Both the position numbers and the translations under genes were made by a program. Below, piece after piece: positions 16,020 to 63,806 of a DNA stretch of 64,000 nucleotides. Source of the DNA: an uncultured Pseudomonadota bacterium (GTDB lineage: Bacteria; Pseudomonadota; Alphaproteobacteria; Rs-D84); NCBI GenBank assembly GCA_902793435.1, contig CADBDF010000001.1, forward strand, positions 69,131-133,130, in the 5' to 3' direction. The notes below the pieces were generated by a model. It had not been told where the DNA came from. It searched no databases and was given only the letters and a program-made list of their open reading frames with translations. Each line of letters begins with the position of its first letter. Within the stretch, counting starts at the first letter, position 1.

Positions 16020-16474
16020 TTAGGAATTTTTTCTTTTTCTTGCGCAAAATATCGCCATTTTTGGCTGTGATTATTTTATGGCGTTTGCAGTTGCACTGGT
16101 GGAATCCTGCTGGGATTTTGGCAATTATTCCTATATTTTTCTTTTCGTTTGTTCGTACAATTGATTGGATGCCTTTGTTTTCAATTTTGTTTTGTTTTTT
16201 AATTGATTACAATGGTGATACCAAATTATTTTGGACATGTTGTTATTTAATTGCGTATGCGATAAATGGTTTTCAATATTTTATTGATTTGCACAGGGCT
16301 GATAAAAACGCAATTATTCCATTTGTTATATTTTTTGGTGCATCGTGTTTCATGTTGATGTTTGCTAATTTATCTTGGACCACGATTGGACGCGCATTAT
16401 GGTTATTTATATGGGTTTCAACATTGTATATTCCTCTTACAAATTTATTAACCAAGGTGTTGCCACATGATTGA
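16016..16474 (+). CDS. mreD: rod shape-determining protein MreD (by position)
   Basis: 152-aa polytopic membrane protein. ATGA overlap with mreC and an 8-nt overlap with mrdA. Confidence 0.55.
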   Translation: MIRNFFFFLRKISPFLAVIILWRLQLHWWNPAGILAIIPIFFFSFVRTIDWMPLFSILFCFLIDYNGDTKLFWTCCYLIAYAINGFQYFIDLHRADKNAIIPFVIFFGASCFMLMFANLSWTTIGRALWLFIWVSTLYIPLTNLLTKVLPHD

Positions 16475-19387: not shown

Positions 19388-19390
19388 ATT

Positions 19391-21667: not shown

Positions 21668-23284
21668 TTGGCAAAATATGATAATAATTTTGTTGATGAA
21701 TTACGCACACGCCTGTCGATTGTTGATGTGGTTGGACGACATGTTCCTTTGACCAAAAAAGGTCAAAATTATTGGGGTTGTTGCCCGTTTCATAATGAAA
21801 AAACCCCGTCTTTTTCGGTTAATGAAGAAAAAGGATTTTATCATTGTTTTGGTTGTGGCGCACATGGCGATATTGTTTCTTTTACAATGAATATTGAACA
21901 TGTTGAATTCAAAACTGCTTTGCAAGAATTGGCAGATATGGCGGGATTAAAAATGCCAACAGTTAAAGAAAAATCCCCAGAAAGAGTGCGTTTAGAAGAT
22001 TCTTACTTTGATATATGCGAACGCGCCACATGTGAATATCAAAAGTTATTATTTGAACCGGTGGGGGCTGATGCGTTGGCGTATATTCGCGGACGTGGTT
22101 TTACGGACGAAATGATAAAAAAATATCGTTTGGGTTATGCACCAAAAAACAACTTGATTACAAATAAATTTAGTAATTTAAAACAATCTAATTTATTAGC
22201 CACCGGTTTGGTTCGGCATGGTGATTATGGTTTATTTGATTTTTTCCGTCATAAATTAATGTTTCCAATTTTTGACCCAAAAGGAAAAGTTGTTGCTTTT
22301 TCAGGACGCAGTTTAGACGGGTCTGAACCTAAATACATAAATACAACCGATACAGAATTATTCCATAAAAGACATACTATATTTGGTTTTAATTTTGCCC
22401 GCGAAGATATTTATAAAAAAAATCGCAGTATTATTGTCGAAGGTCAAATTGACGCAATACAAATGCAATGTCATGGATTTGGTGAAACTGTTGCACCACT
22501 GGGCACCGCATTAACCGAAGACCATATCGCAATTTTATGCAAATCAAATCGTAATATAATTTTTTGCTTTGATGGTGATTCCGCAGGACAAAAGGCGGCC
22601 TCGCGGGCGGCATCTATTGTTTTACCGTTTGTCAAAGATAATTCAAATGTTAGTTTTGCGTTTGTGACGGGTGGTAAAGATCCAGATGAAGTTTTAAAAT
22701 CTGGTGGAATTCCTGCAATGAAAAAAATTATAGATGATGCGACACCATTGATTGATTTTTTATGGAAATCTGTGAATCAAAATTATTTGGTAAAAACACC
22801 TGGGGGACGTGTGCAGGCTGAAAAATTTTTGGATACGGAAATAAAAAAAATCACCGATAAAAAATTACAATTTGAATACGAACAAGAATATAAAAAACGC
22901 GAATTTCTGACATGGCGTTCGTGGAAAAAAGATGATACACCAAAAATTAAATTACCTGATACAGATTTGGTGACAAAAAACACACTTATTTATATTGTGA
23001 ATAATTTTGAAAATATTGCCACGCAATACGCAGACTTTTTGGCAAGTCTAAATATTTCTTTTGATGGAAACGCACCAGATTTATGTTGGAACGAAAAACA
23101 GGCTGAAAAATTTATCGTATCATTAAAACTGCAAAGATATCGCGCAACATTAGAACAAGAATTAAAAACAAAAATGCAGGGTATGATAAATGGTGAAAAC
23201 ATCACAAATGAAGAGTTAGCCGAGATAAAGAAAAAAATTACAGATATAAACCAAAGATTAGAAAAATTATTATATATGGAGTAG
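21668..23284 (+). CDS. dnaG: DNA primase
   Basis: Zn-finger CCPFHNEKTPSFSV...YHCFGCGAHGD and TOPRIM IIVEGQIDA...FDGDSAGQKA. TTG start 1 nt after the topA stop. Confidence 0.9.
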   Translation: MAKYDNNFVDELRTRLSIVDVVGRHVPLTKKGQNYWGCCPFHNEKTPSFSVNEEKGFYHCFGCGAHGDIVSFTMNIEHVEFKTALQELADMAGLKMPTVKEKSPERVRLEDSYFDICERATCEYQKLLFEPVGADALAYIRGRGFTDEMIKKYRLGYAPKNNLITNKFSNLKQSNLLATGLVRHGDYGLFDFFRHKLMFPIFDPKGKVVAFSGRSLDGSEPKYINTTDTELFHKRHTIFGFNFAREDIYKKNRSIIVEGQIDAIQMQCHGFGETVAPLGTALTEDHIAILCKSNRNIIFCFDGDSAGQKAASRAASIVLPFVKDNSNVSFAFVTGGKDPDEVLKSGGIPAMKKIIDDATPLIDFLWKSVNQNYLVKTPGGRVQAEKFLDTEIKKITDKKLQFEYEQEYKKREFLTWRSWKKDDTPKIKLPDTDLVTKNTLIYIVNNFENIATQYADFLASLNISFDGNAPDLCWNEKQAEKFIVSLKLQRYRATLEQELKTKMQGMINGENITNEELAEIKKKITDINQRLEKLLYME

Positions 23285-26384: not shown

Positions 26385-26675
26385 ATGAGACAGCAAGTTT
26401 TAAAAGCTTTGGCAAATCCGCCGCGTATTTTTTACGTGCCATATTCGTTGGCCGTAATCAATTTTGTCGTGCAATTTGTTGCTTTTATTGCAATTTATGT
26501 CGTTTCTTTGGTCTTTTTTGGGTATGATATCAGCCCGGTTATTTTTCTGTTATCTGTGATGTTTGTTCATATGGTTTTGGCAATATATTCCAGGCGCGAC
26601 CCACAAATAGGCCAGATTTTATCCGCAAGAATACAACTTTTTAAACACAAGGTTCCACAAAGATTACCAGCATGA
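26385..26675 (+). CDS. virB3: type IV secretion system protein VirB3/TrbD-like
   Basis: 96 aa. LKALANPPRIFYVPYSLAVINFVV followed by two TM segments, which is the VirB3 pattern. ATGA overlap with virB4. Confidence 0.6.
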   Translation: MRQQVLKALANPPRIFYVPYSLAVINFVVQFVAFIAIYVVSLVFFGYDISPVIFLLSVMFVHMVLAIYSRRDPQIGQILSARIQLFKHKVPQRLPA

Positions 26676-29095
26676 TAGATTATAACCAAATTTTTGAATA
26701 TTTTGCCGGCAGTAGTGATTTTCCAATCACACTGACTGTGTTGGTTATGGTTGTTGTGGTTGTTTTTATTGCTTTGATGTTATATCTTCCTGTTTTAACG
26801 CGAAAAATTTTTCCTAAATTTGGGTATAGTTCATATTCTGACTATTTGCCTTTTAAAAATGTTAAAAAAGACAATACTTTGGTTTTAAATGATGATTCTG
26901 TGGTCAGGGTTTATCATTTAGATGGTGTCCAAACGGGCTTGCAAGATGATGAAACACGTGCAAGATTTTTAGATTTGCGTGCCAGTTTGTTTAATCAAAT
27001 CAAAGACCCAAATGTCGTTTTGCGGTTTTTTACCACCAGAGATGCTGTAAATGAAAATGTTAATTATGAATTTCATCAGCCAACTTTACAGATGATTTAC
27101 GATAAGTGGAAAAACCAGGGTTTAAAGATTTTTTCTAATAATTATTATATTGTGATTTCTGTATCAGGTGCAGATGCAACCGAAAAGTTAAATCAATGCT
27201 GTAATTATATTGAATCAATGTTTGCGGGTTATAAACCTAAATTGTTAAAAAATGATGATAAATATAATATGGCACGGTTTTTTGGCCGGATTTTATCGCC
27301 TGTGACAAAACCAGAACCGGCGGTTGCGGATAAAAATATTGCAAATTTAGTGACGGTTGATGATGTTGAATTTTTACAATCTGGGTTTATTAAATATGAA
27401 AGTGGTGGTAATACAAAATATGCGGCGGCGATTTCTTTCAAAATTGCACCTGATTATTTGGACGAAGAATTTTTTATAAATGTATCAACAATTCAAACAG
27501 AAATGATTTGTATGAGTGGTTTTCGTATTATGGGGGTTGCTGATGTTGCAACGGCTTTGCGTCAAACACAATCAACAATGGACGAAAAACACGAAGAATC
27601 AACCATGGAACAATTAGATGCCGCGGAAAGTATTATGGACGAAAATGTTTCTGGAAATCAAAGTTTGGTTAATTTTTATCCTTTGTTTATGTTGTTTGCG
27701 GATACAGTAGAAGATTTGGAAAAATATGTTGCAGAATTTAAAAAAATATCGGCTTCATTTGGGGTTTCGCCTGTTGTTGAAACATTTGCGTCACGTGTTT
27801 CTATGTTTTCTATTATTCCGGGGTTTGATGTTTTCCCACGCAGTTTTAAATTGTTATCAAAAACGGCTGCGATATCAATTCCTATGGACGCGGTGCCACG
27901 TGGTCATGCAAACAGCGATTGGGGCCCGGGTCCATTGGTTGTTTTCCCAACAGCCCAGGGAACACCATATCAATTCCAATTCCATGTTTCAGATGCGCCG
28001 GTGGCGGTGGGGCATAGTTTAACAATTGGTCCAACCGGTGGTGGTAAAACAACACTTTATTCATTTTTAATTGCACAATCATTGCGTCATCAAAAATTAA
28101 AAGCGTTTTTCTTTGATAGAAATAAAGGTGCCGAAATATTTACTTTGGCGGTGGGTGGTAAATATATCACTATGCAGGGACGCGACAAAAAAGCCGATGA
28201 AAACGAAAAATCTTTTGAAACACACTTAAATCCATTAAAAATGGCTGATACGGTTGCAAATCGTGCATTTTTGCGTCGTTGGTTTGCTATGATTTCCGGG
28301 CAAAATGATGCGGCATCGGCGGACGAAATTGCACGTGCGGTATCGGTTAATTTTGATTATTTGGCTGATAAAGACAGAAAGTTAAAAAATTTGTGGGAAA
28401 GTTGTTTTTCGTCCAGTGGTAATATGCGGCCTGCGTTAAAAAAGTGGGTTGATGATTTGCAATATGGCGATATGTTTAATGAAGATAGTGATACTTTGGA
28501 TTTACAATCCAGACTTACCACTTTTGATTTTACAGATATTTTGCAAGACCCTGATTTAGCGCCGGCGGTTATTTCATATATTTTACACAGAATTAATAAT
28601 ACAACTGTTTCTGGTGGAAATCCGTCTTTGATTATGATTGACGAAACCGCACCTATGTTGGAAAACAAAATGTTCCGCGATAATTTTATTACAGGTCTGC
28701 AAGAAGGTCGTAAAAATCGTCAGGCATATATGGTGGCTTTCCAACGCGCAAATGTTTTGGATAAATTAGGTATCGGTGATGTTGTTCGTGGTCAGGCACA
28801 AACAGTGTTATTTTTCCGGAATCCTGCGGCAGATGTCGCGGATTATGAACACTGGAAATTAAATCCGTTGGAAATGGCGTTTATCCAAGGTAAAGCATAT
28901 CCTAATTTAAAACGCGCGGTGTTGTTGTCGCGTCCGGTCACAGGGGAATCTGTTATTTTAAATACAGAATTAGGTGGTTTGGGTAATTTATTAAGGTTAT
29001 TTGAATCTGGGCGTTCATCGGTTTTATTGGCCGAGGAATTATATAAACAATTTGGGAGTGGTTTTGTCGAAGAATACTTAAAGAAAAATGTATAA
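26672..29095 (+). CDS. virB4: type IV secretion system ATPase VirB4/TrbE family
   Basis: 807 aa. N-terminal TM segment, Walker A GPTGGGKTT, Walker B-like LIMIDETAP. Size and layout match VirB4/CagE. Confidence 0.85.
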   Translation: MIDYNQIFEYFAGSSDFPITLTVLVMVVVVVFIALMLYLPVLTRKIFPKFGYSSYSDYLPFKNVKKDNTLVLNDDSVVRVYHLDGVQTGLQDDETRARFLDLRASLFNQIKDPNVVLRFFTTRDAVNENVNYEFHQPTLQMIYDKWKNQGLKIFSNNYYIVISVSGADATEKLNQCCNYIESMFAGYKPKLLKNDDKYNMARFFGRILSPVTKPEPAVADKNIANLVTVDDVEFLQSGFIKYESGGNTKYAAAISFKIAPDYLDEEFFINVSTIQTEMICMSGFRIMGVADVATALRQTQSTMDEKHEESTMEQLDAAESIMDENVSGNQSLVNFYPLFMLFADTVEDLEKYVAEFKKISASFGVSPVVETFASRVSMFSIIPGFDVFPRSFKLLSKTAAISIPMDAVPRGHANSDWGPGPLVVFPTAQGTPYQFQFHVSDAPVAVGHSLTIGPTGGGKTTLYSFLIAQSLRHQKLKAFFFDRNKGAEIFTLAVGGKYITMQGRDKKADENEKSFETHLNPLKMADTVANRAFLRRWFAMISGQNDAASADEIARAVSVNFDYLADKDRKLKNLWESCFSSSGNMRPALKKWVDDLQYGDMFNEDSDTLDLQSRLTTFDFTDILQDPDLAPAVISYILHRINNTTVSGGNPSLIMIDETAPMLENKMFRDNFITGLQEGRKNRQAYMVAFQRANVLDKLGIGDVVRGQAQTVLFFRNPAADVADYEHWKLNPLEMAFIQGKAYPNLKRAVLLSRPVTGESVILNTELGGLGNLLRLFESGRSSVLLAEELYKQFGSGFVEEYLKKNV

Positions 29096-35093: not shown

Positions 35094-36416
35094 TTGTTAG
35101 ACACAGTTATTGGCGCTTTTTTCAGTTTTTTATTCAACAAATTGTTCGGGTTTGGTGATAAGACATTGTCTAATTTGTTGCGTGTAAATAAAAAACGTTT
35201 TGCCGCGGGGTTGTTTTGGCAACCGGTTGCGGTTGGGTACAGTGCAAAAAATTATGCGCGCGTTTTAACAAAAAATTCCAAGGTTAAAGCAAATTTATTT
35301 GTTGAATATCGGTCTATGGTTGGTTTGGCACCAAAGCATCGCGGTTTTTATGCGGGTATGCCATCTGCGGCCGCAGAAATTGTTGATACGTTGGCTGAAT
35401 ATTCTTCGTTCTTGGCGGTTTTTGTTGTTGATAAAAAATATTATTTGTTGGCTGTGCGTAATGGTATTATTTTGGCTGATAAATTATATACTGACGAGGC
35501 GGATGCGCGTGCGGAATATGCACGATTTTCAAAAATTCCTGATTGGACCGCTTTTATTGCGCCAAATTCGTGGGGAATTCCGCGTGCGTCGGCGCGTGAT
35601 TTGAATACTTTATTGCCACGCAAAACAAAATATAATTTACGTGCAATCAGTCGTTGGGCACCGATTGTGTTTTCTGTAATTATGTTTTTGATTTTCTTTG
35701 GTGCGTTGTATTTTATCTTTCGCGAACCAATTAATAAAATTACGGCACCAAAAAAAGTTGAATTGGACCCTGAATTAGTTGCGGAATACAAACGTCAGGT
35801 CGAAGAAAAAAATAAAGAGTTAGATGCAGAATTTAATATTCAAAAAGAAGAAGTTAAACCACTGGTTTTACCATATACAAATTTGCCAGAACCAATGGCA
35901 CGTGCAAAGCAATGTTATCAGGCAATTGGATTTTTAATGCAGCCGGTGACCGGATGGGCGCAATCAAATGTTGTTTGTGATGAAACACGTGCAACAGCTG
36001 AATTTAACAGAAAATTTGGATCATTGGACGGTTTTTATTCTGTGGCGGCGGATTTTTTACCTGGGGCAGATGTTGTTGAAATAGATGACAATACTTTGAG
36101 TGTTAGTGTTGCTTTGCCAAATATTGAACATGTGGCGTCTTTGGACGAACGCGATGCTGAAACAATTGAACGTAATGTTGTTAGTTTGTTTCAAACGGCG
36201 CATATGGACGCAAAAACAAAGATTGTTGTTGATACATTAACCAATGGTGTTGATACGGCAAAATTAAACATTGTAGAAATTGCGGTTAATTCAAAATTAT
36301 TGCCAATGCAATTTACAAAAATGTTTGAAAATTTTGGTGGTGTATATGTCACGCGTTGTGCGTGGAATGCAATATCACGAAATTGGAACTATGAGGTTAT
36401 AATCTATGCAAAATAA
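35094..36416 (+). CDS. type IVb pilus biogenesis protein, PilO-like (R64/PAPI-1 PilO2 family, tentative)
   Basis: 440 aa with a TTG start. N-terminal ...RFAAGLFWQPV... and a central TM segment (WAPIVFSVIMFLIFFGALYFIF). The assignment rests mainly on size and position upstream of PilP/PilQ/PilR-like genes, as in R64 (PilO is about 430 aa). Confidence 0.4.
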   Translation: MLDTVIGAFFSFLFNKLFGFGDKTLSNLLRVNKKRFAAGLFWQPVAVGYSAKNYARVLTKNSKVKANLFVEYRSMVGLAPKHRGFYAGMPSAAAEIVDTLAEYSSFLAVFVVDKKYYLLAVRNGIILADKLYTDEADARAEYARFSKIPDWTAFIAPNSWGIPRASARDLNTLLPRKTKYNLRAISRWAPIVFSVIMFLIFFGALYFIFREPINKITAPKKVELDPELVAEYKRQVEEKNKELDAEFNIQKEEVKPLVLPYTNLPEPMARAKQCYQAIGFLMQPVTGWAQSNVVCDETRATAEFNRKFGSLDGFYSVAADFLPGADVVEIDDNTLSVSVALPNIEHVASLDERDAETIERNVVSLFQTAHMDAKTKIVVDTLTNGVDTAKLNIVEIAVNSKLLPMQFTKMFENFGGVYVTRCAWNAISRNWNYEVIIYAK

Positions 36417-37152
36417 AATTAAATTGTTTGGTTTGTTGTTCGGCGTATTTACGTTATGTGTTATGCCAAATGTGTCGTATGCGGACGATGATTTCGAAGA
36501 ATTGGTCGAAGAAGATTCTTTTGATTATTTGACCGATGATGCGGCAAAAGATTTGTCGGCTATGTCTGTTGCAAATTACGATGTTGATGGGTCTGTGTTT
36601 CAAAAAATTACAGATTTAGAACAACAAAAAGTTTTGATGGAATTGGAAAAAGAACGCGCACAATTAGATTTAGATTTGGATAGATTGGCGGCTGAAAAAA
36701 TTAAACTGCAAATGGAAATGGATACTTTGTCTGGGCGTGCAGAACAAGAACAACAGATTTTGCAAAACGAAAAAGCAAAATTAGAAGCCGAGGCTGCGCG
36801 TATAGAAGCCGAGAAAAAGGCTTTGATTGCGGCGGCAGAAAATGAAACATATGCGGCACCTGTGGTGACGGGTTCTGCCAAGAAATCGTCTGTTGCAAAA
36901 AAGAAACCTGTGGTGGAAGAAAACCAAGATGAAGATTGGGTTGATATTTCGTCTTTATATAAATTGGTAAATGTTATGGGTGCCGGAAATCAGTTGCAGG
37001 CAACATTGTCTGATTTGGAAACTGGGCAAACAAAACGCGTGACGGTTGGTAAAAAAATCAATGGTTTTGTTGTGAAATCTATATCGTTGGAAGACGGTGT
37101 TGTGTTTAGTAAAGATGGTGAAACACAAAATTTAAATATATCAAGTCGGTAA
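36406..37152 (+). CDS. PilP-like periplasmic pilus assembly protein (tentative)
   Basis: Signal peptide, an acidic region, a long coiled-coil, and a C-terminal beta domain LQATLSDLETGQTKRVTVGKKINGFVVKSISLEDGVVF like the PilP C-domain. Overlaps both neighbours. Confidence 0.4.
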   Translation: MQNKIKLFGLLFGVFTLCVMPNVSYADDDFEELVEEDSFDYLTDDAAKDLSAMSVANYDVDGSVFQKITDLEQQKVLMELEKERAQLDLDLDRLAAEKIKLQMEMDTLSGRAEQEQQILQNEKAKLEAEAARIEAEKKALIAAAENETYAAPVVTGSAKKSSVAKKKPVVEENQDEDWVDISSLYKLVNVMGAGNQLQATLSDLETGQTKRVTVGKKINGFVVKSISLEDGVVFSKDGETQNLNISSR

Positions 37153-37156
37153 TAAA

Positions 37157-38779
37157 ATGAGTAAAGATACAGAAAATTTAACCGCATTAAAACCGTCTGT
37201 GCCAGCCGGCATGGAAGGTGCCGAAATAAAAGAAATCATTGATTATTTGTTTTCTAATGGTAATCGTTTATTGACGGCGACTGGGGCAAAAATGGAATTA
37301 TCCAAAGATGTCCAAAGTTTGATTGCGTATTTTTCTGGGGGTGAAATTATTGTTTCGCGAACACATAAATATGATGGTCGTGTGTTGGCTTTTATGGATT
37401 TGTTGCGCGAACGTGGTATGAATTATCGGGAACCGTTCTATTCCGATTTAGGTTTGGTGTCGGCGATATATAAAACATACGAAGAAAGGTTGGGTTCTGG
37501 GGCGCGTCAAAGAAATGATTTCGACAACCAAATGCAGAAAGATTTTGTCGATATTATTGCACGTGCGGCGGCACAAAAGGTTAGTGATGTGCATATCGAG
37601 GTGGCTGACCAGACAACAATTTATTTCCGTATAGATGGTAGTATGCAACCTGTGTTGGAATATAATTCTGGGTGGGGTGAATCTTTTGTTAGAGCGGCCT
37701 TTGCATCGGCGGATATTTCAAATTCAAACTATGCACAAAATGAATATCAATCTGCCCAAAAAGATGGCAGAACACCATTGCGTGGAACGCGTGATTTATA
37801 TTTGCCTGCGGGTGTCACCAGTATTCGTATGCAGTTTAATCCAATCGCGTATGGAACGCGTTATGTTGTTATGCGATTGTTGTATGATAATCCGTCAGAA
37901 GGTATTAAAACAGAACAAGAATTTGGTGAATATGAACAAAGGTTGTTAATGCGTCTGCGTTCGTATCCAACAGGTTTGGTTATTGTTGCGGGTCCAACCA
38001 GTTCTGGTAAATCAACGACATTGGTTCGCAATATGTCGATGATGTTAAAAGAACGTAATTATGAAATAAATATGATTACGGTGGAAAATCCGGTTGAACA
38101 AAAAATTTTTGGCGCACATCAAATGCCTGTCGTAAATGCTATGAACGAAGAACAACGCGATGAAAAATATACCGAGGCTTTGGCGGCGGCATTGCGTAGT
38201 GACCCGGATACATTGATGGTTGGTGAAATTCGTACTTTGGCGGCGGCGCAATTAACGGTGCGTGGTGCGTTGTCGGGGCATAATGTTTGGACGACTTTGC
38301 ATGCGAATTCTGCGATGGCGGCTTTGACACGATTGTTGGATATGGGTATTGAAAGTTTTAAATTAAAAGATGAAACTTTGATGCGTGGTTTGGTGTCTAT
38401 GCGGTTGTTTAAAAAACTGTGTCCGCATTGTCGCGAGGCTTTATCGAATCACCCAGAACATTCGGCATATTCGCGTGTGATGGATGCGTTTGGTGAAATT
38501 GGATTAAAACAAGTTTTTATTAAAGGTCCAGGTTGTAGCGAATGTAATGGTTCGGGCACCATTGGGCGTATCAAGGCCGGTGAAATCATTATCACAAACA
38601 GTGAGTTTTTGCGGATTGCATTGGCGGGAAATACCGATATGGCGGTTAAATATTGGTTGGAAGAAATGGATGGGCGCACATTAAAGGAATCTGCCGCAGA
38701 GTTAATGTTGCGTGGTATTATTGGTGTTGATGAATTAGAACGTTGGGTTGGATTGTTGGACAGACCAGGGGAATATTAA
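37157..38779 (+). CDS. GspE/PilB-family secretion ATPase (R64 PilQ-like)
   Basis: Walker A GPTSSGKST, Asp box, Walker B DTLMVGEIR, His box GHNVWTTLHAN, and the tetracysteine CPHC...CSEC. 540 aa. Confidence 0.88.
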   Translation: MSKDTENLTALKPSVPAGMEGAEIKEIIDYLFSNGNRLLTATGAKMELSKDVQSLIAYFSGGEIIVSRTHKYDGRVLAFMDLLRERGMNYREPFYSDLGLVSAIYKTYEERLGSGARQRNDFDNQMQKDFVDIIARAAAQKVSDVHIEVADQTTIYFRIDGSMQPVLEYNSGWGESFVRAAFASADISNSNYAQNEYQSAQKDGRTPLRGTRDLYLPAGVTSIRMQFNPIAYGTRYVVMRLLYDNPSEGIKTEQEFGEYEQRLLMRLRSYPTGLVIVAGPTSSGKSTTLVRNMSMMLKERNYEINMITVENPVEQKIFGAHQMPVVNAMNEEQRDEKYTEALAAALRSDPDTLMVGEIRTLAAAQLTVRGALSGHNVWTTLHANSAMAALTRLLDMGIESFKLKDETLMRGLVSMRLFKKLCPHCREALSNHPEHSAYSRVMDAFGEIGLKQVFIKGPGCSECNGSGTIGRIKAGEIIITNSEFLRIALAGNTDMAVKYWLEEMDGRTLKESAAELMLRGIIGVDELERWVGLLDRPGEY

Positions 38780-38783
38780 ACGC

Positions 38784-39854
38784 ATGGAAAAATTAGAAAT
38801 TTTATATGCAAAAATGGTGTTCAAATTGAATACCGACAGACGATTGGCGCTGATACGAAAATTGGCGTCGTTGTTGCGTAATAATTTTTCTTTGATGGAC
38901 GCGTTGAGTCGTATAGAAGATATTGAATCTAAAAATGGACGAAAACCCGATGAACCCTTTGCTATTGCGATGCGTATGTGGCAAAAAAATCTGGAAATGG
39001 GACTTAGTTTTGCAGATGCTACGCGTGGTTGGTTGCCTGATTCCGAAATTTTGTTGGTGACATCTGCAAATGTGACAGATTTGGTTATTTCGCTTGAAAA
39101 TCTGGATAGGGTGGTAAATGGTATTACCAAAATAAAACGCGCAATGCGTAATGCGATTGCGTATCCTTTGTTTTTGTTGGCTTTGACATTTGGTATTATT
39201 GTTATGGTTGGTGTGTATTTGGTGCCACCATTGGCATCGGTTGCGGGTCCAAATGTTGTTTTTGGTGGTGCCGCTGGGATTTTAATTACTGTGTCACAGT
39301 TTTGTATAAATTATTGGCATGTTATTGTTGGATTTATGTTGGTTGTTATTTTCTTGGTTTGGGCAAGTTTGGCAAATTGGCGTGGGGGGTTGCGGACTTT
39401 GTTTGATGTTTTGCCACCATGGAGTATTTATAAAATGTATGTGTCGGTTGGTTGGATGATGTCTTTGTCGGCGATGGTGCGTGCGGGTGTTGCGGTGCCA
39501 GATGCAATGCGGACATTGGCAGATAATTCAAACGGATATTTGCGTGATATTTTGGAAAATACTTTGCGGTATATTGCAAATGGTGATAATTTAGGTGTTG
39601 CATTGGATAAAACAGGGCGCGAATTTCCAAATGATGAAATTATCGGCGATTTGACTATATATTCTGAAATGAACGATTTTGGTGAAAATATATCGCGTGT
39701 GGCAAATGATTATTTGGTAAATTCTGTGCGCAAAATGGAGGCTGTATCATCAACATTAAACAGTGTTGGTATTTTGTTGGTGTCGATTATTATTGCGTGG
39801 GTTGTGTTGGCTACTTTCCAAATGCAAGACCAAATTACTATGATGTTATCGTAG
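38784..39854 (+). CDS. GspF/PilC-family inner-membrane platform protein (R64 PilR-like)
   Basis: About 357 aa. Two repeated cytoplasmic T2SSF-type domains separated by TM segments. The ATG at 38784 lies 5 nt after the ATPase stop; the ORF-track start at 38748 overlaps the ATPase. Confidence 0.75.
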   Translation: MEKLEILYAKMVFKLNTDRRLALIRKLASLLRNNFSLMDALSRIEDIESKNGRKPDEPFAIAMRMWQKNLEMGLSFADATRGWLPDSEILLVTSANVTDLVISLENLDRVVNGITKIKRAMRNAIAYPLFLLALTFGIIVMVGVYLVPPLASVAGPNVVFGGAAGILITVSQFCINYWHVIVGFMLVVIFLVWASLANWRGGLRTLFDVLPPWSIYKMYVSVGWMMSLSAMVRAGVAVPDAMRTLADNSNGYLRDILENTLRYIANGDNLGVALDKTGREFPNDEIIGDLTIYSEMNDFGENISRVANDYLVNSVRKMEAVSSTLNSVGILLVSIIIAWVVLATFQMQDQITMMLS

Positions 39855-57893: not shown

Positions 57894-59672
57894 TTAGTTT
57901 TGTTTTTTTAATAAACTTTGGACCGCCATTGTGAAATCAGGGGCAGATGCCAGGTAAGAACCGCTGACCAAGAAATCTGCACCGGCGGCCCAACATTTTT
58001 GTGCGGTTATGTCGTTTATTCCGCCATCAACCGATATTATATATTTTAATCCATGTTTTTTGCGGGTTATTGATAAAGCAGAAATTTTCTGCAAAACATT
58101 TGTATCAAATTTTTGTCCCGCGGCACCAGGCGCAACAGCCATTATTAAAAATTCATCAACATCACGTAAATATTTTGCCATTTCACCAATTGGTGTGTCT
58201 GGGTTAATTGCGATTGCAGCGCGACGACCGGTTGCACGTATTTCGCGTAATGCCGATAATACCCCCGGTGTATTACATTCTAAGATTATTGTATCTGCGC
58301 CGGCACGAATTGCATTTGCAGCCCAAACAGATGGGTTTTGAACCATTAAATGAACATGTAAATGTGCGTGTGTGTTTGCACGAATTGTTTTTAATTCTGG
58401 GATTCCACCAGCAATTTTATCAACGTACAATCCGTCCATTATATCAACATGAATTGTTGTTATTCCCGCAGATTCAAACAGTTTATATGTTGATGTGCTG
58501 AACATATTAAAACACAATGTTGATGGGGCAATGGGAATAAATTTTGGTTTTTGTTTTTTTGGTTTTTTGATAAAAATTTTTTTAATTTTGTTTATGATTG
58601 CTGTGCGGCGTTCTTGTTTCTCCAAATATAATTTGCGTTCTGGTTCCTGGGCTTTCCAAATGTAGTTTGATAGGGCAGTGATTGTTGCGTCGGCATGGTA
58701 ATTTTCAATCGGTAATCCAAATGCATTTCCAACAAAATCAACAACACCGGTTATTGCGGTCCCACCACCGCTGATTATTATTTTTGTAGGCATAAATTCG
58801 TTTATTGGTGTAATGCATAAATCTTTTAATTTTCCAATTATATCAACCACAGTTGGAACAACAATGTCATTTACATCGCCACGTGAAAAATCGTATGCAG
58901 TATCAGCAGGCGCCAATCTGTCCATGGCGCGCGGAATTAATGTTGCAACCATGCGTTTTATTCTTTCGGCTTCGTCAAAATCTATGTGTAATCCGTCCAT
59001 TAATTTCATTGTGACATTTGACATGCCGGCTGGTAATTTTTCATACCAACATACACCGTTGTCGTTCCATATTGAACAAGATGTAAATTCAGCACCCATA
59101 TCAACAAATAATATGGTTTGACCAGATTTGCGTAATGTCATATTTTGAACATATCCAGGGTCAAATAATCCGTTATATTGAATATGTGCCTTGTTCAAAA
59201 TTGATACAATTTCAGCCAATCTGTCGTTTTCATAACATATAACACCAAATGTGGAAACCAATGCTCTGTCAATAGAGCCCACAGGATTTGCGATTTTGCG
59301 TATTGTTGGAATATCATATTGGATTGGTATTAAATGAATTCCGGTGTATCCATCAGGTGTATGTATTTTTGAAATCTGGGTGCGAATATCGGCGTCTGTG
59401 ATTTTGTGTTCGGTGTTCCATACGGTTGTTTGTGGTTGGCGCAAAAAAATAGATTTTCCAAAATTTCCAGTCACATATGCGTTTTCAAAATGTGCGCCCA
59501 GTTCGTGTTCCAGTTTATCAACAACAACACGAACAGCAAATTCTGGATTAAAACTGTCGCACATGGCGGTTGCGGATTTTGCAATTTTTCCAGAACATAC
59601 ATGATGTGCAATTCCACGAACGCAACTGGTCCCGATATCAAGGCATAAAAAACAAGAATCAAACATATTCAT
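57894..59672 (-). CDS. ftsA: FtsA-like cell division protein fused to a complete ribulose-phosphate 3-epimerase domain
   Basis: The N-terminal ~385 aa is a divergent actin-like FtsA (LDIGTSCVRG, FVDMGAEFTS, IISGGGTAITG) and ends in a basic amphipathic stretch AIINKIKKIFIKKPKK. The C-terminal ~215 aa carries Rpe motifs IAPS, HVDIMDG, HVHLMV, NPDTP, MAVAPGAAGQKF, SVDGGI and GADFLVSGS. It is one uninterrupted frame. The start is likely ATG 59672 or 59666, because the ORF-track start at 59714 overlaps ftsQ. Confidence 0.75.
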   Translation of the reverse strand: MNMFDSCFLCLDIGTSCVRGIAHHVCSGKIAKSATAMCDSFNPEFAVRVVVDKLEHELGAHFENAYVTGNFGKSIFLRQPQTTVWNTEHKITDADIRTQISKIHTPDGYTGIHLIPIQYDIPTIRKIANPVGSIDRALVSTFGVICYENDRLAEIVSILNKAHIQYNGLFDPGYVQNMTLRKSGQTILFVDMGAEFTSCSIWNDNGVCWYEKLPAGMSNVTMKLMDGLHIDFDEAERIKRMVATLIPRAMDRLAPADTAYDFSRGDVNDIVVPTVVDIIGKLKDLCITPINEFMPTKIIISGGGTAITGVVDFVGNAFGLPIENYHADATITALSNYIWKAQEPERKLYLEKQERRTAIINKIKKIFIKKPKKQKPKFIPIAPSTLCFNMFSTSTYKLFESAGITTIHVDIMDGLYVDKIAGGIPELKTIRANTHAHLHVHLMVQNPSVWAANAIRAGADTIILECNTPGVLSALREIRATGRRAAIAINPDTPIGEMAKYLRDVDEFLIMAVAPGAAGQKFDTNVLQKISALSITRKKHGLKYIISVDGGINDITAQKCWAAGADFLVSGSYLASAPDFTMAVQSLLKKQN

Positions 59673-59676
59673 TTTT

Positions 59677-60372
59677 TTATTTAACCAATATTCGTGATGC
59701 ATCGCGCATATCAATTACGGTTATGTCGCGATTTAATATATTATGATTTTTATTTATTGTTATTAAATTGGCAATCGCATGTGCAAAGTCGTCTTCGGGT
59801 AATTTAACCGTAATGCCGGTATTTGTTTGTATATTCCAACGACGATTTTCAATGCGTTCAATATAATCAATATCAGCCGCCATGTCGTTTGCGGCATTTG
59901 TAATTTCTGTTAAATCCATACCTTCGGGAATATAACCGCGAAACAGTAATGCGGATTCAGGACGTTCGGTGGTTGGGTTTTGAACGATTTTTCCGTCATC
60001 GGACACTGGAAAATAATATTCACCATCGGTCCATGCCGCTACAACATGATAATATGATACGCGCGCGCGAATAGTGCTGTTTGGTAATTTGCGAACCGCG
60101 GCATCGCGAACATTTGGAATTGCCTTTAAATTAGCAGTCAAAGAATCCAGGTCTATGGAATAAAATGGTGTGCTTTTTGGGATTGATACCGCGCCAACCA
60201 ATGCGGTCATATCTTTGTTTTCAACATCGGCGGTAAAAGATATTTTATGCACATGTGCCAAATCGCCATGTCCCAAACCAATCATAATTGTACGCGATAC
60301 AAAGTATATCGCCAATATAATGGCGGCACAGAAAGATAACCAAAACCAGATTGAACGCCTCATGTTTGGCAT
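59677..60372 (-). CDS. ftsQ: cell division protein FtsQ (by position and topology)
   Basis: 231 aa. Short cytoplasmic tail, one TM segment (IWFWLSFCAAIILAIYFV), and a periplasmic POTRA-like domain. Immediately upstream of ftsA. Confidence 0.6.
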   Translation of the reverse strand: MPNMRRSIWFWLSFCAAIILAIYFVSRTIMIGLGHGDLAHVHKISFTADVENKDMTALVGAVSIPKSTPFYSIDLDSLTANLKAIPNVRDAAVRKLPNSTIRARVSYYHVVAAWTDGEYYFPVSDDGKIVQNPTTERPESALLFRGYIPEGMDLTEITNAANDMAADIDYIERIENRRWNIQTNTGITVKLPEDDFAHAIANLITINKNHNILNRDITVIDMRDASRILVK

Positions 60373-60417: not shown

Positions 60418-60798
60418 TTATATCGCACGCAATAAGTATCCGCGACGCATCATACAACGGCGATAGGCACCAACGGTTTTAGATGCCTGGTTGCGTGGAA
60501 CAGACATTAATGCGCGTTGTCCAACATCCCTGTATTCGTTTGATTGAAATGTGACCCAAATTCCGTCCCAATCTGGCATTTGGTCATTTTGGTTTGGTGA
60601 TAACAGGCGCGCAATACGCGAACGTGGTGTATAATTGTTTGTTTTTAATCCCAGACAAGATTTGTGGTCGCGAACAAATTGTTCGGTTGTGACGGCATCG
60701 TTTTCCCAATTTAAAATTGTTGCGTCGTCGATATTGCCACGATTTGCCGATGCACATGATGTTAAAGCCAATAATAATGCCAGGTATTTGATTTTCAT
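60418..60798 (-). CDS. small lipoprotein, unknown function
   Basis: MKIKYLALLLALTSCAS lipobox. 126 aa. Confidence 0.5.
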   Translation of the reverse strand: MKIKYLALLLALTSCASANRGNIDDATILNWENDAVTTEQFVRDHKSCLGLKTNNYTPRSRIARLLSPNQNDQMPDWDGIWVTFQSNEYRDVGQRALMSVPRNQASKTVGAYRRCMMRRGYLLRAI

Positions 60799-60872
60799 GT
60801 TTTATATTATAAAACATTTGCGTTAGGGTGGCAATAGTTTTTATAATGAAAAAAAGAGGAAGGGAACAAGTT

Positions 60873-61193
60873 ATGGCAATATCTGTTCAAAATTTTATCA
60901 AGTTGGCTAATTTTTATAACCAAATGTTGGTGACTATGTCTGCAATTTGTGTGGAAAAGGGCGGAATAGCAATGGAAAATTATGTTGGTCGATTCTTTGT
61001 CGCAGATACATTGGAATATATTTTGGAATATGCGCGTCGATTAGAACAGGCGGGGCCTGTGCCAAATGATGTTGCGCGTGTGATAAAGGTGTTTCAAGAA
61101 AAGTTTGAAGGTATGAAGGATTTAGTCACACCAACAGAAAAACCGATTTATGAAATGACATTGGAAGAATTTGAAAAAATTATGAACATATAA
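60873..61193 (+). CDS. hypothetical protein upstream of the secretin-like gene
   Basis: Start chosen at ATG 60873, after GGAAGGGA and downstream of a TATAAT at 60842. The ORF-track GTG is at 60828. 106 aa with no motif. Confidence 0.4.
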   Translation: MAISVQNFIKLANFYNQMLVTMSAICVEKGGIAMENYVGRFFVADTLEYILEYARRLEQAGPVPNDVARVIKVFQEKFEGMKDLVTPTEKPIYEMTLEEFEKIMNI

Positions 61194-61224: not shown

Positions 61225-62538
61225 ATGAAACGTTTTTTATTGTATGCTTTGGCTGTCGTTATATGTGCGGGGTGTCAAAACGCAAAAAATGTTCCACAAT
61301 ATGAAACAGTCCAGGTTGTTGAAAATATGGTCATAGATGAAAAGTCTGTGCCAATATTTCCAAAAAAAGCCGCTTTGACTACGGATACGGCGCAAAGATT
61401 TTCTGTGGAATTGCCTATGCGTTGCACTGTTGATTGGAATAATCAATCTGTTGTGTCGGTTGTGCCGGCTGAAAAAATTGAAATTGTGCGATTGGGATTG
61501 GGTGATGCGTTGCCAGAATTGACTGTCAGTGAATATAAGTTCAAAGATGTGACTGTGGCGGCGGCGTTAAATAAATTGTTGGACGGAACAGATGTGTCCG
61601 TTGTTGCAGATGAACAGTTGGTTGAAAAAATATCTGGCGAGGTTCAATCTGGCAGTTTGGCGGATACGGTTGATTTGATTGCGAAAATGGGACGCGCATA
61701 TTATTCGTATGATGCGGTGACGGCAGAAATTCATTTGCAACATCGCGCAAAATGGATGATTAAAATGCCAAAAGATGAATCTATAATTATGGCTTTGTTG
61801 GACGCGATGCATGGTGCGGATGTGCGGAATTTGTTGGTAAATTGGCAAGATAAAACCGTCGTGTTCGAAGGTGATGCGCAAACAGAACGCGAAGTATCCA
61901 GAATTATTGCGGATATTGCGTCTAAAAAATATATGATTGCATGGGATATGGACGTGTATCGTGTTTATCCAAAGACAGATAATCCAATTATATGGATGAA
62001 TTTGTTGCCTGCGTTTGGAAAAAATAATATTAAAATGTCTATACCGGGTGTTGTTGGTCGTGCGTTGGTTGTGGGGCCAGAAATAAATACAAAAACTTTG
62101 CAGGAATTTTTGGCGCAACAATCAAATGTTGTATTGATTTCACAAGGGACTTTTTCGATTCCAAATGGTTGGCAGTCACGATTTGATATCGGTCAATGCA
62201 GTAAAGAAGACAGATTGGAAACAGATTTAGTGATTGGGGCAACTGGTCGTTATGGTGATTATGGCGGTTATCAAAAAATAGATGCCAAAATAGTTTTAAC
62301 AACAAAGTATGGTGAATTGACTTCATTTAATATACCGTCCAGTGTTGGTGATAATTATGTGATTGTTGGTATTCCTACGCATTCTTTTGTGACAACCCCA
62401 GAAACATTGATTAGTCCTTTTGCAGAATTGGTTGTGTTTATGTCACCGCGGTTGGTGTCGATTGTTGATGATGTTAAACCAAAATCTGGTGAAGCATTAT
62501 TGGTTGGTGACGATGTGCGTGAGTTGTTAAATAATTAA
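61225..62538 (+). CDS. secretin-like outer-membrane lipoprotein (type IVb pilus PilN/BfpB-like, tentative)
   Basis: Lipobox VICAGCQ. The C-terminal ...VGDNYVIVGIPT...SPFAELVVFMSPRLVSI resembles the secretin C-domain end (G....viGG.....eLlifitPriv). At 437 aa it is shorter than R64 PilN. Confidence 0.42.
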   Translation: MKRFLLYALAVVICAGCQNAKNVPQYETVQVVENMVIDEKSVPIFPKKAALTTDTAQRFSVELPMRCTVDWNNQSVVSVVPAEKIEIVRLGLGDALPELTVSEYKFKDVTVAAALNKLLDGTDVSVVADEQLVEKISGEVQSGSLADTVDLIAKMGRAYYSYDAVTAEIHLQHRAKWMIKMPKDESIIMALLDAMHGADVRNLLVNWQDKTVVFEGDAQTEREVSRIIADIASKKYMIAWDMDVYRVYPKTDNPIIWMNLLPAFGKNNIKMSIPGVVGRALVVGPEINTKTLQEFLAQQSNVVLISQGTFSIPNGWQSRFDIGQCSKEDRLETDLVIGATGRYGDYGGYQKIDAKIVLTTKYGELTSFNIPSSVGDNYVIVGIPTHSFVTTPETLISPFAELVVFMSPRLVSIVDDVKPKSGEALLVGDDVRELLNN

Positions 62539-62549
62539 AGGAATTTTGT

Positions 62550-63806
62550 ATGTTGTTTTCAAATTTAGAAAAAAAAGTTGCCTTTCGTTATTTGCGTGCA
62601 AAAAAGCGCGGTTTTGGTTCGGTGGTGTCGTGGGTGTCGCTGATAGGTATTATGTTAGGCGTGGCAACCTTGATTGTTGTTATGTCGGTTATGGGTGGCT
62701 TTCATGATGTTTTGTTGGGACGTATTATTGGTATGAACGGGCATATTGTTGTTCAACACCAAGATGGACCGATTGCCGATTATGATTATTTAATAGACAA
62801 AATTAAACAAAATAAAATTGTTGATGCAAACGCAGTGTCTGTGGTTCCAATTATCGAAGGTCAGGTTATGGTGACGCATGATGGACGCAATTCTGGGGCG
62901 ATGATTCGTGGAATAAATATGCCAGATTTGATTTCTAAAACAACCGGCGGAACACGTTTTTATGGTAAAGATTTAGCGGCTATTAAAGATGGTGAATTGG
63001 TTATGGGTGCAACTTTGTCGCGTAATTTGGGTGTTGCGCTGGGTGATGATGTGTCTTTGGTTTCGGCGAATAATTCAACCCCAACACCATTTGGTTCAAT
63101 GCCACGTATTGTTTCGTATCCTGTGAAAAATTCTTTCTTTATGGGTATGTATGAATATGATTCTGGGTATATATTTATGCCGATTTCCACCGCGCAAAAA
63201 TATTTGAATATTGGAAAGTCTGTCACGCATATCGATATATTTTTAAAAAATGCAGAAAATACAACCGCGGTGCGTGATGCGTTGGTGCGGTTGTTGCCAG
63301 ACGGTTTTATTGTGCGTGATTGGCGTGATTTAAATCGTGGATTTGTTGGTGCATTACAGGTCGAATCAAATGTGATGTTTTTGATTTTGATGCTGATAAT
63401 TATTGTTGCGGTATTTAATATTGTGTCTTCGTTGGTTATGTTGGTGCAAGATAAAGCCAAAGATATTGCGGTTTTGCGGACTTTTGGTGTGTCGCGCAAA
63501 TCTATGATGCGTATATTTGTTTTGTCGGGAACAACAATTGGTGTGATTGGTTCTGCGGCTGGAACATTGTTGGGAACATTGATTGCGATTTATATTGAAC
63601 CAATACGTAAGTTTTTACAATGGGCCACAGGGCGCGATTTGTTTCCTGCGGAATTGTATTATCTATCTGAATTACCATCGCGTGTAGAATTTTGGACTGT
63701 GTTTGGAATTGCGTTTATTGCGATATTGTTGGCTTTTTTGGCAACATTATATCCAGCATGGAAGGCGGCAAATACTGACCCTGTGGAGGTGTTAAGAAAT
63801 GAATAA
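62550..63806 (+). CDS. lipoprotein-releasing ABC transporter permease LolC/LolE
   Basis: AFRYLRAKKRGFGSVVSWVSLIGIMLGVATLIVVMSVMGGF N-terminus, a large periplasmic loop, and a C-terminal FtsX-type 3-TM domain. 418 aa. Confidence 0.85.
   Translation: MLFSNLEKKVAFRYLRAKKRGFGSVVSWVSLIGIMLGVATLIVVMSVMGGFHDVLLGRIIGMNGHIVVQHQDGPIADYDYLIDKIKQNKIVDANAVSVVPIIEGQVMVTHDGRNSGAMIRGINMPDLISKTTGGTRFYGKDLAAIKDGELVMGATLSRNLGVALGDDVSLVSANNSTPTPFGSMPRIVSYPVKNSFFMGMYEYDSGYIFMPISTAQKYLNIGKSVTHIDIFLKNAENTTAVRDALVRLLPDGFIVRDWRDLNRGFVGALQVESNVMFLILMLIIIVAVFNIVSSLVMLVQDKAKDIAVLRTFGVSRKSMMRIFVLSGTTIGVIGSAAGTLLGTLIAIYIEPIRKFLQWATGRDLFPAELYYLSELPSRVEFWTVFGIAFIAILLAFLATLYPAWKAANTDPVEVLRNE

What the first reader, a model, noticed from the sequence alone, without database searches (positions are those of the whole stretch)
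57894..59672. FtsA reading frame continues into a full ribulose-phosphate 3-epimerase domain
One uninterrupted 606-codon ORF follows ftsQ. Its first ~385 aa are a divergent FtsA (actin-fold phosphate motifs LDIGTS, DMGAEFT, SGGGTA). This part ends in a basic amphipathic stretch AIINKIKKIFIKKPKK, which looks like the usual C-terminal membrane-targeting helix of FtsA.

Without a stop codon, the frame continues into a ~215-aa domain with all Rpe hallmarks:
- IAPS.
- HVDIMDG, carrying the His/Asp metal ligands.
- HVHLMV.
- MAVAPGAAGQKF.
- SVDGGI.
- GADFLVSGS.

There is no in-frame ATG or GTG with an RBS at the junction, so Rpe cannot obviously be made separately. I do not know of a described fusion of a divisome protein with a pentose-phosphate enzyme. 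It could be a recent stop-codon loss, an assembly or sequencing artefact, or a genuine moonlighting arrangement in a reduced genome.
Basis: partly seen in the sequence, partly recalled or inferred. Interest (0 to 1): 0.62.

Follow-up and report, generated by a model that had tools for sequence, protein, structure and literature searches.

The report
Conserved FtsA–Rpe fusion protein
In a whole lineage of tiny-genome gut Alphaproteobacteria (order Rs-D84, e.g. Candidatus Enterousia), the cell-division protein FtsA is permanently fused to the sugar-phosphate enzyme ribulose-phosphate 3-epimerase; this is a real, ancient gene and not an assembly error, and I found no paper describing it.

Summary
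One open frame, 57894-59714 (-), encodes both parts; its likely start is the ATG at 59672, giving 592 aa. The parts are an FtsA-type actin-fold domain, a basic amphipathic helix, a short Lys/Pro linker and a complete ribulose-phosphate 3-epimerase (Rpe) TIM barrel.

It is neither an artefact nor a recent stop-codon loss.
- About 140 protein clusters at 90% identity, and roughly 25 at 50%, have the same ~565-623 aa architecture, down to 28% identity.
- These come from genomes of 24-55% GC, nearly always directly downstream of ftsQ.
- Independent metagenome assemblies and one metatranscriptome contig cross the junction without indels.
- Both halves are under strong purifying selection (dN/dS 0.05-0.08).
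- 137 of 140 fusions keep the Rpe His/Asp/His/Asp active-site residues.

Two AT-rich sublineages have lost those residues. They still keep the full-length domain, in one of them at dN/dS 0.2. This suggests the barrel also has a structural role for FtsA.

Best reading: a genuine two-domain protein that places an active Rpe at the membrane-proximal end of FtsA. Oligomerisation by the Rpe barrel probably contributes to FtsA assembly; that part is inferred.

I class it as a new variant of known kinds. Literature searches found no description of it.

The parts
57894..59672 (-). ftsA::rpe fusion gene. 592 codons from ATG 59672, stop codon at 57894-57896. The mechanical ORF extends to a TTG at 59714, inside ftsQ.
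58647..59672 (-). FtsA-type actin-fold domain (ORF residues 15-356). Includes the phosphate-1 motif LDIGTS (59625-59642), the phosphate-2 motif DMGAEFT (59082-59102) and the adenosine motif SGGGTA (58755-58772).
   Evidence: Pfam FtsA above cut-off, SHS2_FTSA weak. The family profile hits FtsA structures first: 7q6f at E=2.8e-26, against PilM at 2.4e-12. Foldseek TM 0.70-0.74 to FtsA over about 380 columns. Motif conservation.
58572..58646 (-). Long C-terminal helix of the FtsA part (residues 357-381). Its distal half, continuing into the linker (AIINKIKKIFIKK, 58563-58601), is basic and amphipathic. It corresponds to the FtsA membrane-targeting helix but is internal here.
   Evidence: AF2 predicts a helix at 357-381. 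The hydrophobic moment is 0.57, the same as the E. coli FtsA MTS computed the same way. An amphipathic basic helix is present in most but not all family members.
58539..58571 (-). Lys/Pro-rich basic linker IKKPKKQKPKF (residues 382-392), A-rich at the DNA level. It is predicted to be disordered. The 'KPKF-IPI(A/M)PS' junction is conserved.
   Evidence: pLDDT below 50 at 383-389. Junction conservation. The A-runs are not conserved in relatives.
57903..58538 (-). Ribulose-phosphate 3-epimerase (beta/alpha)8 domain (residues 393-604). Metal and catalytic residues: H422 (58449-58451), D424 (58443-58445), H455 (58350-58352) and D563 (58026-58028).
   Evidence: PF00834 E=1.8e-43. NF004076 above cut-off. 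Full-length alignment to 2FLI and 1RPX. Foldseek TM 0.92, rmsd 1.4 A to 2FLI. The four residues (His, Asp, His, Asp) are kept in 137 of 140 fusions.
59677..60372 (-). ftsQ, immediately upstream and apparently in the same operon (4-nt gap here, 4-nt overlap in relatives).
   Evidence: PF03799 and PF08478. Synteny.

Best explanation
**What it is.** This is a genuine, anciently fixed gene encoding one polypeptide of about 66 kDa. It is the FtsA orthologue of these bacteria, co-transcribed with ftsQ. Its membrane-targeting amphipathic helix is followed, after a basic linker of about 10 residues, by a complete ribulose-phosphate 3-epimerase barrel.

**Shown:**
- The frame is uninterrupted in every relative examined.
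- Both domains have the expected folds and are under purifying selection.
- The Rpe active-site residues are intact here and in about 98% of family members.
- No conserved internal start or slippery site exists.

**Inferred:**
1. The N-terminal part works as FtsA: it anchors FtsZ and the divisome to the membrane through the now-internal helix plus the polybasic linker.
2. The C-terminal part is a working Rpe that supplies the non-oxidative pentose-phosphate step in these genomes of under 1 Mb. The enzyme would therefore sit at the inner face of the membrane or the division ring.
3. Rpe barrels are obligate dimers or hexamers, so the fused barrel probably also clusters FtsA molecules, raising avidity for the membrane or pairing filaments. 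FtsA has probably become dependent on this. That would explain why two sublineages that lost the catalytic residues still keep the whole domain under purifying selection.
For: **Reality and age of the fusion**
- 666 hits; the best 120 are nearly all about 590 aa and carry both PF14450 and PF00834.
- About 25 representatives at 50% identity are full-length fusions, down to 28% identity.
- In 15 GTDB species genomes, including a 95%-identical rumen MAG, the frame is uninterrupted.
- Loci carrying the fusion range from 24% to 55% GC.
- Four independent metagenome assemblies cross 58530-58620 with no indels. A sheep metatranscriptome contig, 58501-58757, does the same.

**Orthology to FtsA**
- ftsQ is annotated directly upstream in nearly every locus examined. 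In L054 the upstream gene has no Pfam hit.
- The family profile and the predicted fold hit FtsA ahead of PilM and MreB.
- The N-terminal part of member P0134 finds only bona fide unfused FtsA proteins, for example one in a canonical mraY...ddl-ftsQ-ftsA-ftsZ cluster.

**Selection**
- Window against L001: dN/dS 0.08 for FtsA and 0.05 for Rpe. L007 against L008: 0.07 for both.

**Catalytic competence of Rpe**
- His/Asp/His/Asp are retained in 137 of 140 fusions. Ser398, the PG..GQ loop and the GS phosphate loop are also conserved.
- The domain aligns with 2FLI over its full length.
- Rs-D84 genomes are reported to encode the non-oxidative PPP except transaldolase (PMC12306168).

**Structural role of the barrel**
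- P0137 and P0284 (75% identical to each other, GC about 25%) and P0142 have lost the metal and catalytic residues and the phosphate loops. They keep a full-length barrel in the same ftsQ context.
- The Rpe part of P0137 against P0284 has dN/dS 0.20.
- The barrel is still predicted confidently for P0137.

**Helix**
- Its amphipathicity equals that of the E. coli MTS.
- AF2 predicts a helix at 357-381 followed by a disordered basic linker.
Against: - No biochemical or localisation data exist; the organisms are uncultured.
- I could not scan a whole genome, so a second rpe or ftsA elsewhere is not excluded. None occurs in the 64-kb window or in the 10-kb flanks of 15 relatives.
- ftsZ is not adjacent in any locus.
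- The FtsA part is very divergent: TIGR01174 scores 79.7 bits against a cut-off of 175.9.
- One subgroup (P0140, P0141, P0143, P0145) has no amphipathic helix before the barrel.
- Some distant members lack the phosphate-1 Asp.
- The oligomerisation role rests on the known quaternary structure of free Rpe enzymes, not on a test here. The AF2 pTM of 0.62 gives no reliable inter-domain geometry.
- The confident fold predicted for the dead-enzyme member may be inherited from the alignment.
Confidence: 0.7

Rival explanations
1. Functionally uncoupled 'Rosetta-stone' fusion. In a shrinking genome, rpe landed downstream of ftsA and the stop codon was lost. The two domains simply work independently on one chain, and Rpe has no role in division.
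For: Rs-D84 genomes are under 1 Mb and gene-dense. Both domains keep their own functional motifs. The linker is short and disordered. No inter-domain contact could be assessed.
Against: A dead Rpe barrel is kept at full length in two sublineages, and in one of them it has dN/dS 0.20. The fusion has never been reverted across lineages of 24-55% GC. The junction KPKF-IPI(A/M)PSTLCF is highly conserved.
Confidence: 0.22
2. One gene, two proteins. Free FtsA (ending at its membrane helix) and free Rpe are produced by internal initiation, ribosomal frameshifting or sliding on the A-rich Lys codons, or proteolysis in the linker.
For: The junction DNA in the window has A6-A7 runs. Some relatives have Met in 'PIMPS' at the start of the barrel. 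The linker is predicted to be disordered.
Against: A-runs of 6 or more are absent in the 95%-identical L001 and in L004, L014, L048 and L054. Off-frame stops lie at variable distances. The window and its close relatives have Ala, not Met, at that position, and no Shine-Dalgarno sequence. Proteolysis cannot be tested here.
Confidence: 0.06
3. Assembly or sequencing artefact, or a recent strain-specific stop-codon loss.
For: The homopolymer-rich junction is the kind of sequence where indel errors occur.
Against: The same frame is found in hundreds of independent assemblies and 15 species genomes. Contigs from four DNA runs and one RNA run cross the junction without gaps. The only 'split' example is a scaffold mis-join with an N gap and a duplicated segment.
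Confidence: 0.01
4. The N-terminal domain is not the divisome FtsA but another actin-fold paralogue (PilM- or EutJ-like) that recruits Rpe for a different process.
For: It scores below the FtsA equivalog cut-off and has weak PilM and EutJ hits. ftsZ is not adjacent. The window also carries a type-IV-pilus-like cluster.
Against: It is always translationally coupled to ftsQ. Profile and fold comparisons rank FtsA well above PilM and MreB. The nearest unfused homologues are canonical FtsA proteins in dcw clusters.
Confidence: 0.04

Closest known systems
Canonical FtsA (E. coli, Vibrio, T. maritima, S. aureus; PDB 7Q6D, 7Q6F, 4A2A, 3WQT)
   Same: ASKHA/actin fold with the FtsA-specific 1C (SHS2) subdomain. 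ATP-binding motifs. The gene sits directly after ftsQ. A basic amphipathic helix lies at the end of the FtsA part.
   Different: The membrane helix is internal and is followed by a 215-aa enzyme domain. The sequence is very divergent (13-17% identity to solved FtsA structures, below the TIGR01174 cut-off). ftsZ is not downstream.
Free ribulose-phosphate 3-epimerase (S. pyogenes 2FLI, potato chloroplast 1RPX, human 3OVP)
   Same: Full (beta/alpha)8 barrel: TM 0.92, 35% identity, with the His/Asp/His/Asp metal and catalytic residues and the phosphate loops.
   Different: The N-terminus is covalently tethered to FtsA and its membrane helix. In two sublineages it is a catalytically dead pseudo-enzyme domain.
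Metabolic enzymes that moonlight as division regulators: UgtP (B. subtilis), OpgH (E. coli), GdhZ and KidO (Caulobacter). This comparison is from my own knowledge, not tested here.
   Same: A central-metabolism enzyme is physically associated with the early divisome, which could couple division to metabolite supply.
   Different: Those are separate proteins acting on FtsZ, with demonstrated regulation. Here the link is a permanent covalent fusion to FtsA, and no regulatory effect has been shown.

Membership tests
FtsA (cell-division actin homologue) | Pfam FtsA domain (PF14450) above the gathering score | tested here: met
   44.4 bits against a cut-off of 31.8
FtsA (cell-division actin homologue) | NCBIfam/TIGR01174 equivalog cut-off | tested here: not met
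   79.7 bits against 175.85. PRK09472 scores 20 against 409. I attribute this to divergence in a fast-evolving reduced genome.
FtsA (cell-division actin homologue) | Actin fold with the 1C/SHS2 subdomain; closest to FtsA rather than PilM or MreB | tested here: met
   Profile against PDB: FtsA E=2.8e-26, PilM 2.4e-12, MreB 7e-11. Foldseek TM 0.70-0.74 over about 380 columns. SHS2_FTSA is a weak hit.
FtsA (cell-division actin homologue) | Nucleotide-binding motifs (phosphate-1 Asp, phosphate-2 Asp-x-Gly, GGG adenosine loop) | tested here: met
   D26, D205/G207 and G316-318 are present in the window and in more than 93% of family members. They are lost in a few distant lineages.
FtsA (cell-division actin homologue) | C-terminal amphipathic membrane-targeting helix | tested here: inconclusive
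   A basic amphipathic helix (hydrophobic moment 0.57, equal to the E. coli MTS) exists but is internal. It is absent in subgroup P0140, P0141, P0143, P0145. Membrane binding was not tested.
FtsA (cell-division actin homologue) | Gene context ftsQ-ftsA(-ftsZ) | tested here: inconclusive
   ftsQ is annotated directly upstream in nearly all loci. ftsZ is never downstream, and no tubulin signature occurs in any held locus.
FtsA (cell-division actin homologue) | Binds the FtsZ C-terminal peptide and localises to the division site | not testable with these tools
   This needs biochemistry or microscopy.
Ribulose-phosphate 3-epimerase (Rpe) | PF00834 above the gathering score; NCBIfam rpe model | tested here: met
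   PF00834 148.7 bits against 21.1. NF004076 178 bits against 165. The stricter TIGR01163 scores 160.8, below its cut-off of 212.6.
Ribulose-phosphate 3-epimerase (Rpe) | Metal and catalytic residues His-x-Asp, His (HLM) and Asp (VDGG), plus the phosphate-binding loops | tested here: met
   H422, D424, H455, D563, PG..GQ and GS are present in the window. The four residues are kept in 137 of 140 family members.
Ribulose-phosphate 3-epimerase (Rpe) | (beta/alpha)8 barrel fold | tested here: met
   AF2 pLDDT about 90. Foldseek against 2FLI: TM 0.92, rmsd 1.4 A.
Ribulose-phosphate 3-epimerase (Rpe) | Ru5P/Xu5P epimerase activity and substrate specificity (as opposed to allulose-6-P and similar) | not testable with these tools
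   This needs an enzyme assay or complementation.

The most novel reading that the evidence does not exclude
The Rpe barrel has become an integral module of the divisome. Its dimer or hexamer interface organises FtsA into paired or clustered filaments at the membrane. In catalytically active members, pentose-phosphate binding may tune FtsA assembly. That would make it a hard-wired metabolic checkpoint on cell division, one that persists as a dead-enzyme scaffold in the most reduced lineages.
Probability: 0.25. Interest if true: 0.8.

Novelty: new variant of a known kind. Interest (0 to 1): 0.6.

Why it matters
FtsA is one of the best-studied divisome proteins, and its extreme C-terminal membrane helix is considered a defining feature. 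Here a whole bacterial order has buried that helix between FtsA and a metabolic enzyme and kept it that way over deep divergence.

If the barrel contributes to FtsA assembly, this is a natural experiment on two questions: how FtsA oligomeric state controls division, and how essential machines recruit and then become dependent on unrelated domains during genome reduction. The sublineages that retain a dead enzyme domain are a clean example of such dependence.

There is also a practical point. These genes are annotated only as 'ribulose-phosphate 3-epimerase' in public records. Automated surveys will therefore score Rs-D84 genomes as lacking FtsA.

Tried and rejected
1. **Artefact at the A-rich junction.** Rejected by independent contigs and by conservation.
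2. **A stand-alone Rpe in a relative (P0136, 209 aa).** Its locus L052 is a scaffold mis-join: 10 Ns flanked by a duplicated 'TEQSEKYIN' segment. It is not a real split.
3. **Programmed frameshift or sliding on poly-A.** A-runs are not conserved, even in the 95%-identical L001, and off-frame stops are at variable distances.
4. **Internal start.** Only TTG400 and ATG404 exist, both after the first barrel strand and without an RBS. The Met of 'PIMPS' in some relatives is Ala here.
5. **Second ftsA or rpe copy.** None was found by phmmer in the six-frame ORFs of the window and of L001-L015. A whole-genome check was not possible with the tools.
6. **ftsZ near the locus.** No GGGTG[ST]G tubulin signature occurs in the window or in any fusion-bearing locus.
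7. **Literature.** No paper combines FtsA, ribulose-phosphate 3-epimerase and fusion. The two papers that mention both proteins are unrelated. The Enterousia/Rs-D84 genome paper does not mention FtsA or the fusion.
8. **phmmer of the single sequence against PDB.** It found no FtsA hits. A family profile was needed.
Full report
**1. Observation.**
The window carries one ORF, 57894..59714 (-), of 606 codons from a TTG. Homologues begin at 'MN(L/M)xDS'. The probable start is therefore the ATG at 59672, four bases after the ftsQ stop codon.

Pfam finds FtsA (PF14450, 44 bits, above its cut-off) at residues 203-340. It also finds a weak SHS2_FTSA hit, and Ribul_P_3_epim (PF00834, E=1.8e-43) at 395-588. 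NCBIfam places the C-terminal part above the cut-off of the rpe subfamily model NF004076. The N-terminal part scores below the FtsA equivalog cut-off.

The only in-frame start-type codons near the junction (TTG400, ATG404) lie inside the barrel and have no ribosome-binding site.

**2. Not an artefact, not recent.**
A search of 5.8 billion proteins returned 666 relatives. The best 120 are nearly all about 590 aa and carry both Pfam domains, at 53-100% identity. An exhaustive search of representatives clustered at 50% identity found about 25 further full-length fusions of 564-623 aa, down to 28% identity. After these, the list drops to ordinary free Rpe proteins of about 220 aa.

In 15 species-representative genomes, including a 95%-identical rumen MAG, the frame is uninterrupted. 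The junction reads ...K(P)KF-IPI(A/M)PSTLCFNM... in nearly all of them.

The single apparent split (P0136, a 209-aa 'Rpe') comes from a scaffold with an N gap and a duplicated segment. It is a mis-join.

Logan contigs from four independent bovine-gut runs cross the junction with no indels. One of them is a diverged strain with 35 substitutions and no gaps. A 257-nt contig from a sheep-gut metatranscriptome also spans it without gaps.

Loci with the fusion have GC contents from 0.24 to 0.55, so the fusion predates a large radiation.

**3. Organism and context.**
The relatives are Candidatus Enterousia and other Alphaproteobacteria MAGs. Enterousia belongs to the order Rs-D84. These are gut bacteria with genomes under 1 Mb and a presumed partner-dependent lifestyle. 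They are reported to keep the non-oxidative pentose-phosphate genes except transaldolase (PMC12306168).

Gene order around the fusion is strikingly conserved, even at 30% identity:
- lolD, lolC/E, and two unknown genes;
- then, divergently, a 126-aa lipoprotein, ftsQ and ftsA::rpe;
- often followed by convergent tsaE, uvrB and asmA.

One lineage has ftsL-like, ftsI, ftsQ and ftsA::rpe. ftsZ is never adjacent, and no tubulin signature occurs in any held locus.

No second ftsA or rpe is present in the window or in the flanks of 15 relatives. The rest of the genome could not be examined.

**4. The two domains.**
A family profile hits solved FtsA structures first (7Q6F at E=2.8e-26). PilM (2.4e-12) and MreB follow well behind.

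The AlphaFold2 model has mean pLDDT 90.4. In Foldseek it superposes on FtsA structures over about 380 columns (TM 0.70-0.74) and on S. pyogenes Rpe 2FLI (TM 0.92, rmsd 1.4 A).

The N-terminal part of the most canonical family member (P0134) retrieves only ordinary unfused FtsA proteins. One of them lies in a classical mraY-murD-ftsW-murG-murC-murB-ddl-ftsQ-ftsA-ftsZ cluster. The N-terminal domain is therefore an FtsA orthologue, though a fast-evolving one.

The model shows a long helix at 357-381, a disordered Lys/Pro linker at 383-389, and then barrel strand 1 at 395. The distal helix (AIINKIKKIFIKK) has the same hydrophobic moment (0.57) as the E. coli FtsA membrane-targeting sequence. The 21 residues before the barrel carry a net charge of +9.

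Most family members share such a helix. One higher-GC subgroup (P0140, P0141, P0143, P0145) has only a Pro/Arg-rich linker.

**5. Selection and catalytic state.**

| Comparison | dN/dS, FtsA part | dN/dS, Rpe part |
|---|---|---|
| Window vs L001 | 0.08 | 0.05 |
| L007 vs L008 | 0.07 | 0.07 |
| P0137 vs P0284 (dead-Rpe lineage) | 0.375 | 0.20 |

Of 140 fusion sequences, 137 retain the Rpe metal and catalytic residues (H422, D424, H455, D563). Ser398, the PG..GQ loop and the GS loop are almost equally conserved. The FtsA phosphate-1 Asp is kept in 132 of 140. The Rpe domain is therefore very probably an active enzyme in the window organism.

Two sublineages are exceptions:
- P0137 and P0284 (75% identical to each other, GC about 25%) have Tyr, Thr or Ser, and Cys in place of His422, Asp424 and Asp563, and degenerate phosphate loops.
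- P0142 has Asn, Asn and Tyr in place of His422, His455 and Asp563, and a deleted PG..GQ loop.

Both keep a full-length barrel in the same ftsQ context. The P0137 lineage also has degenerate FtsA nucleotide motifs. The P0137 against P0284 values in the table show relaxed but still purifying selection. AlphaFold still predicts the barrel confidently for P0137, though this may be inherited from the alignment.

**6. Mechanism.**
*Shown:* one conserved polypeptide made of FtsA, an amphipathic helix, a basic linker and Rpe. There is no conserved route to separate products: A-runs are not conserved and there is no conserved internal start.

*Inferred:* the protein acts as the cell's FtsA and, in most lineages, as its Rpe. 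The enzyme would be held within a few nanometres of the membrane.

Free Rpe enzymes crystallise as dimers or hexamers. This is my own knowledge of 2FLI, 1RPX, 1TQJ and 3OVP; the chain counts are consistent with it. FtsA function depends on its oligomeric state; for double-stranded filaments see PMC11323482, and for the C-terminus acting as a polymerisation and membrane switch see PMC4252000. The most economical explanation for retention of a dead barrel is that barrel-mediated oligomerisation has become part of how this FtsA assembles on the membrane. A metabolite-sensing role is possible but has no support yet.

**7. Comparison and novelty.**
Each domain is a member of a known family. The membership tests are met for fold, Pfam models and key residues. 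The strict FtsA equivalog score is not met, and the requirement for a terminal membrane helix is met only in modified form.

The architecture itself, FtsA with an internalised membrane helix and a C-terminal sugar-phosphate epimerase, was not found in the literature searched. Public records name these proteins only 'ribulose-phosphate 3-epimerase'.

I rate it a new variant of known kinds. It is real and ancient, and of moderate-to-high interest to cell-division and genome-reduction researchers.

Noticed in passing
window 60418-60798 (-): A 126-aa predicted lipoprotein (signal peptide with a Cys lipobox-like 'LTSCAS', no Pfam hit). A gene of 124-127 aa sits upstream of ftsQ in every relative examined, immediately so or, in L048 and L053, with a glycosyltransferase gene in between, down to 28-30% identity of the fusion. 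It may be an unrecognised divisome-associated lipoprotein of this order.
   Followed up: partly
window 60828-61193 (+) and 61225-62538 (+): Two genes without Pfam hits (121 aa and 437 aa, the latter with a lipoprotein-like N-terminus) precede lolC/E (62550-63806). The same 105-aa, 435-aa, lolCE, lolD block is syntenic across all fusion-bearing lineages.
   Followed up: partly
window 35094-39854 (+): A cluster with a PilO-like pilin accessory protein (PF06864), a T2SSE-type ATPase and a T2SSF platform protein. This is a type-IV-pilus or T2SS-like system, although the published Rs-D84 survey reports type IV pili only for another lineage.
   Followed up: no
window 26672-29095 (+): A VirB4/TrbE-type ATPase of a type IV secretion system. 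VirB4 or VirD4 genes also lie near the fusion in distant relatives (L053, L054, L055), in keeping with a host- or partner-associated lifestyle.
   Followed up: no
window 15012-23284 (+): The elongasome genes mreC, a 152-aa gene (likely mreD, no Pfam hit), PBP2 and rodA run straight into topA and dnaG on the same strand, with overlapping or abutting coding regions.
   Followed up: no
L054 10001-11698; proteins P0140, P0141, P0143, P0145: A higher-GC subgroup of the fusion family (GC 0.55) has no amphipathic helix between FtsA and the barrel, only a Pro/Arg/Lys-rich linker. The gene upstream (207 aa) has no FtsQ Pfam hit.
   Followed up: partly
L050 and L056 (P0137, P0284); L057 (P0142): Sublineages, very AT-rich where measured (GC 0.24-0.26 for L050 and L056; L057 not measured), in which the Rpe active site is degenerate. 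In P0137 and P0284 the FtsA nucleotide-binding motifs are degenerate too (LSIAEG, VNLENYFT, SGSNR). The 589-590-aa frame is nevertheless maintained.
   Followed up: yes
L052 2500-3000: A public metagenome scaffold with a 10-N gap flanked by a duplicated segment splits the fusion gene into a false 'FtsA' (306 aa) and a false 'Rpe' (209 aa). Such entries could mislead domain-architecture surveys.
   Followed up: yes
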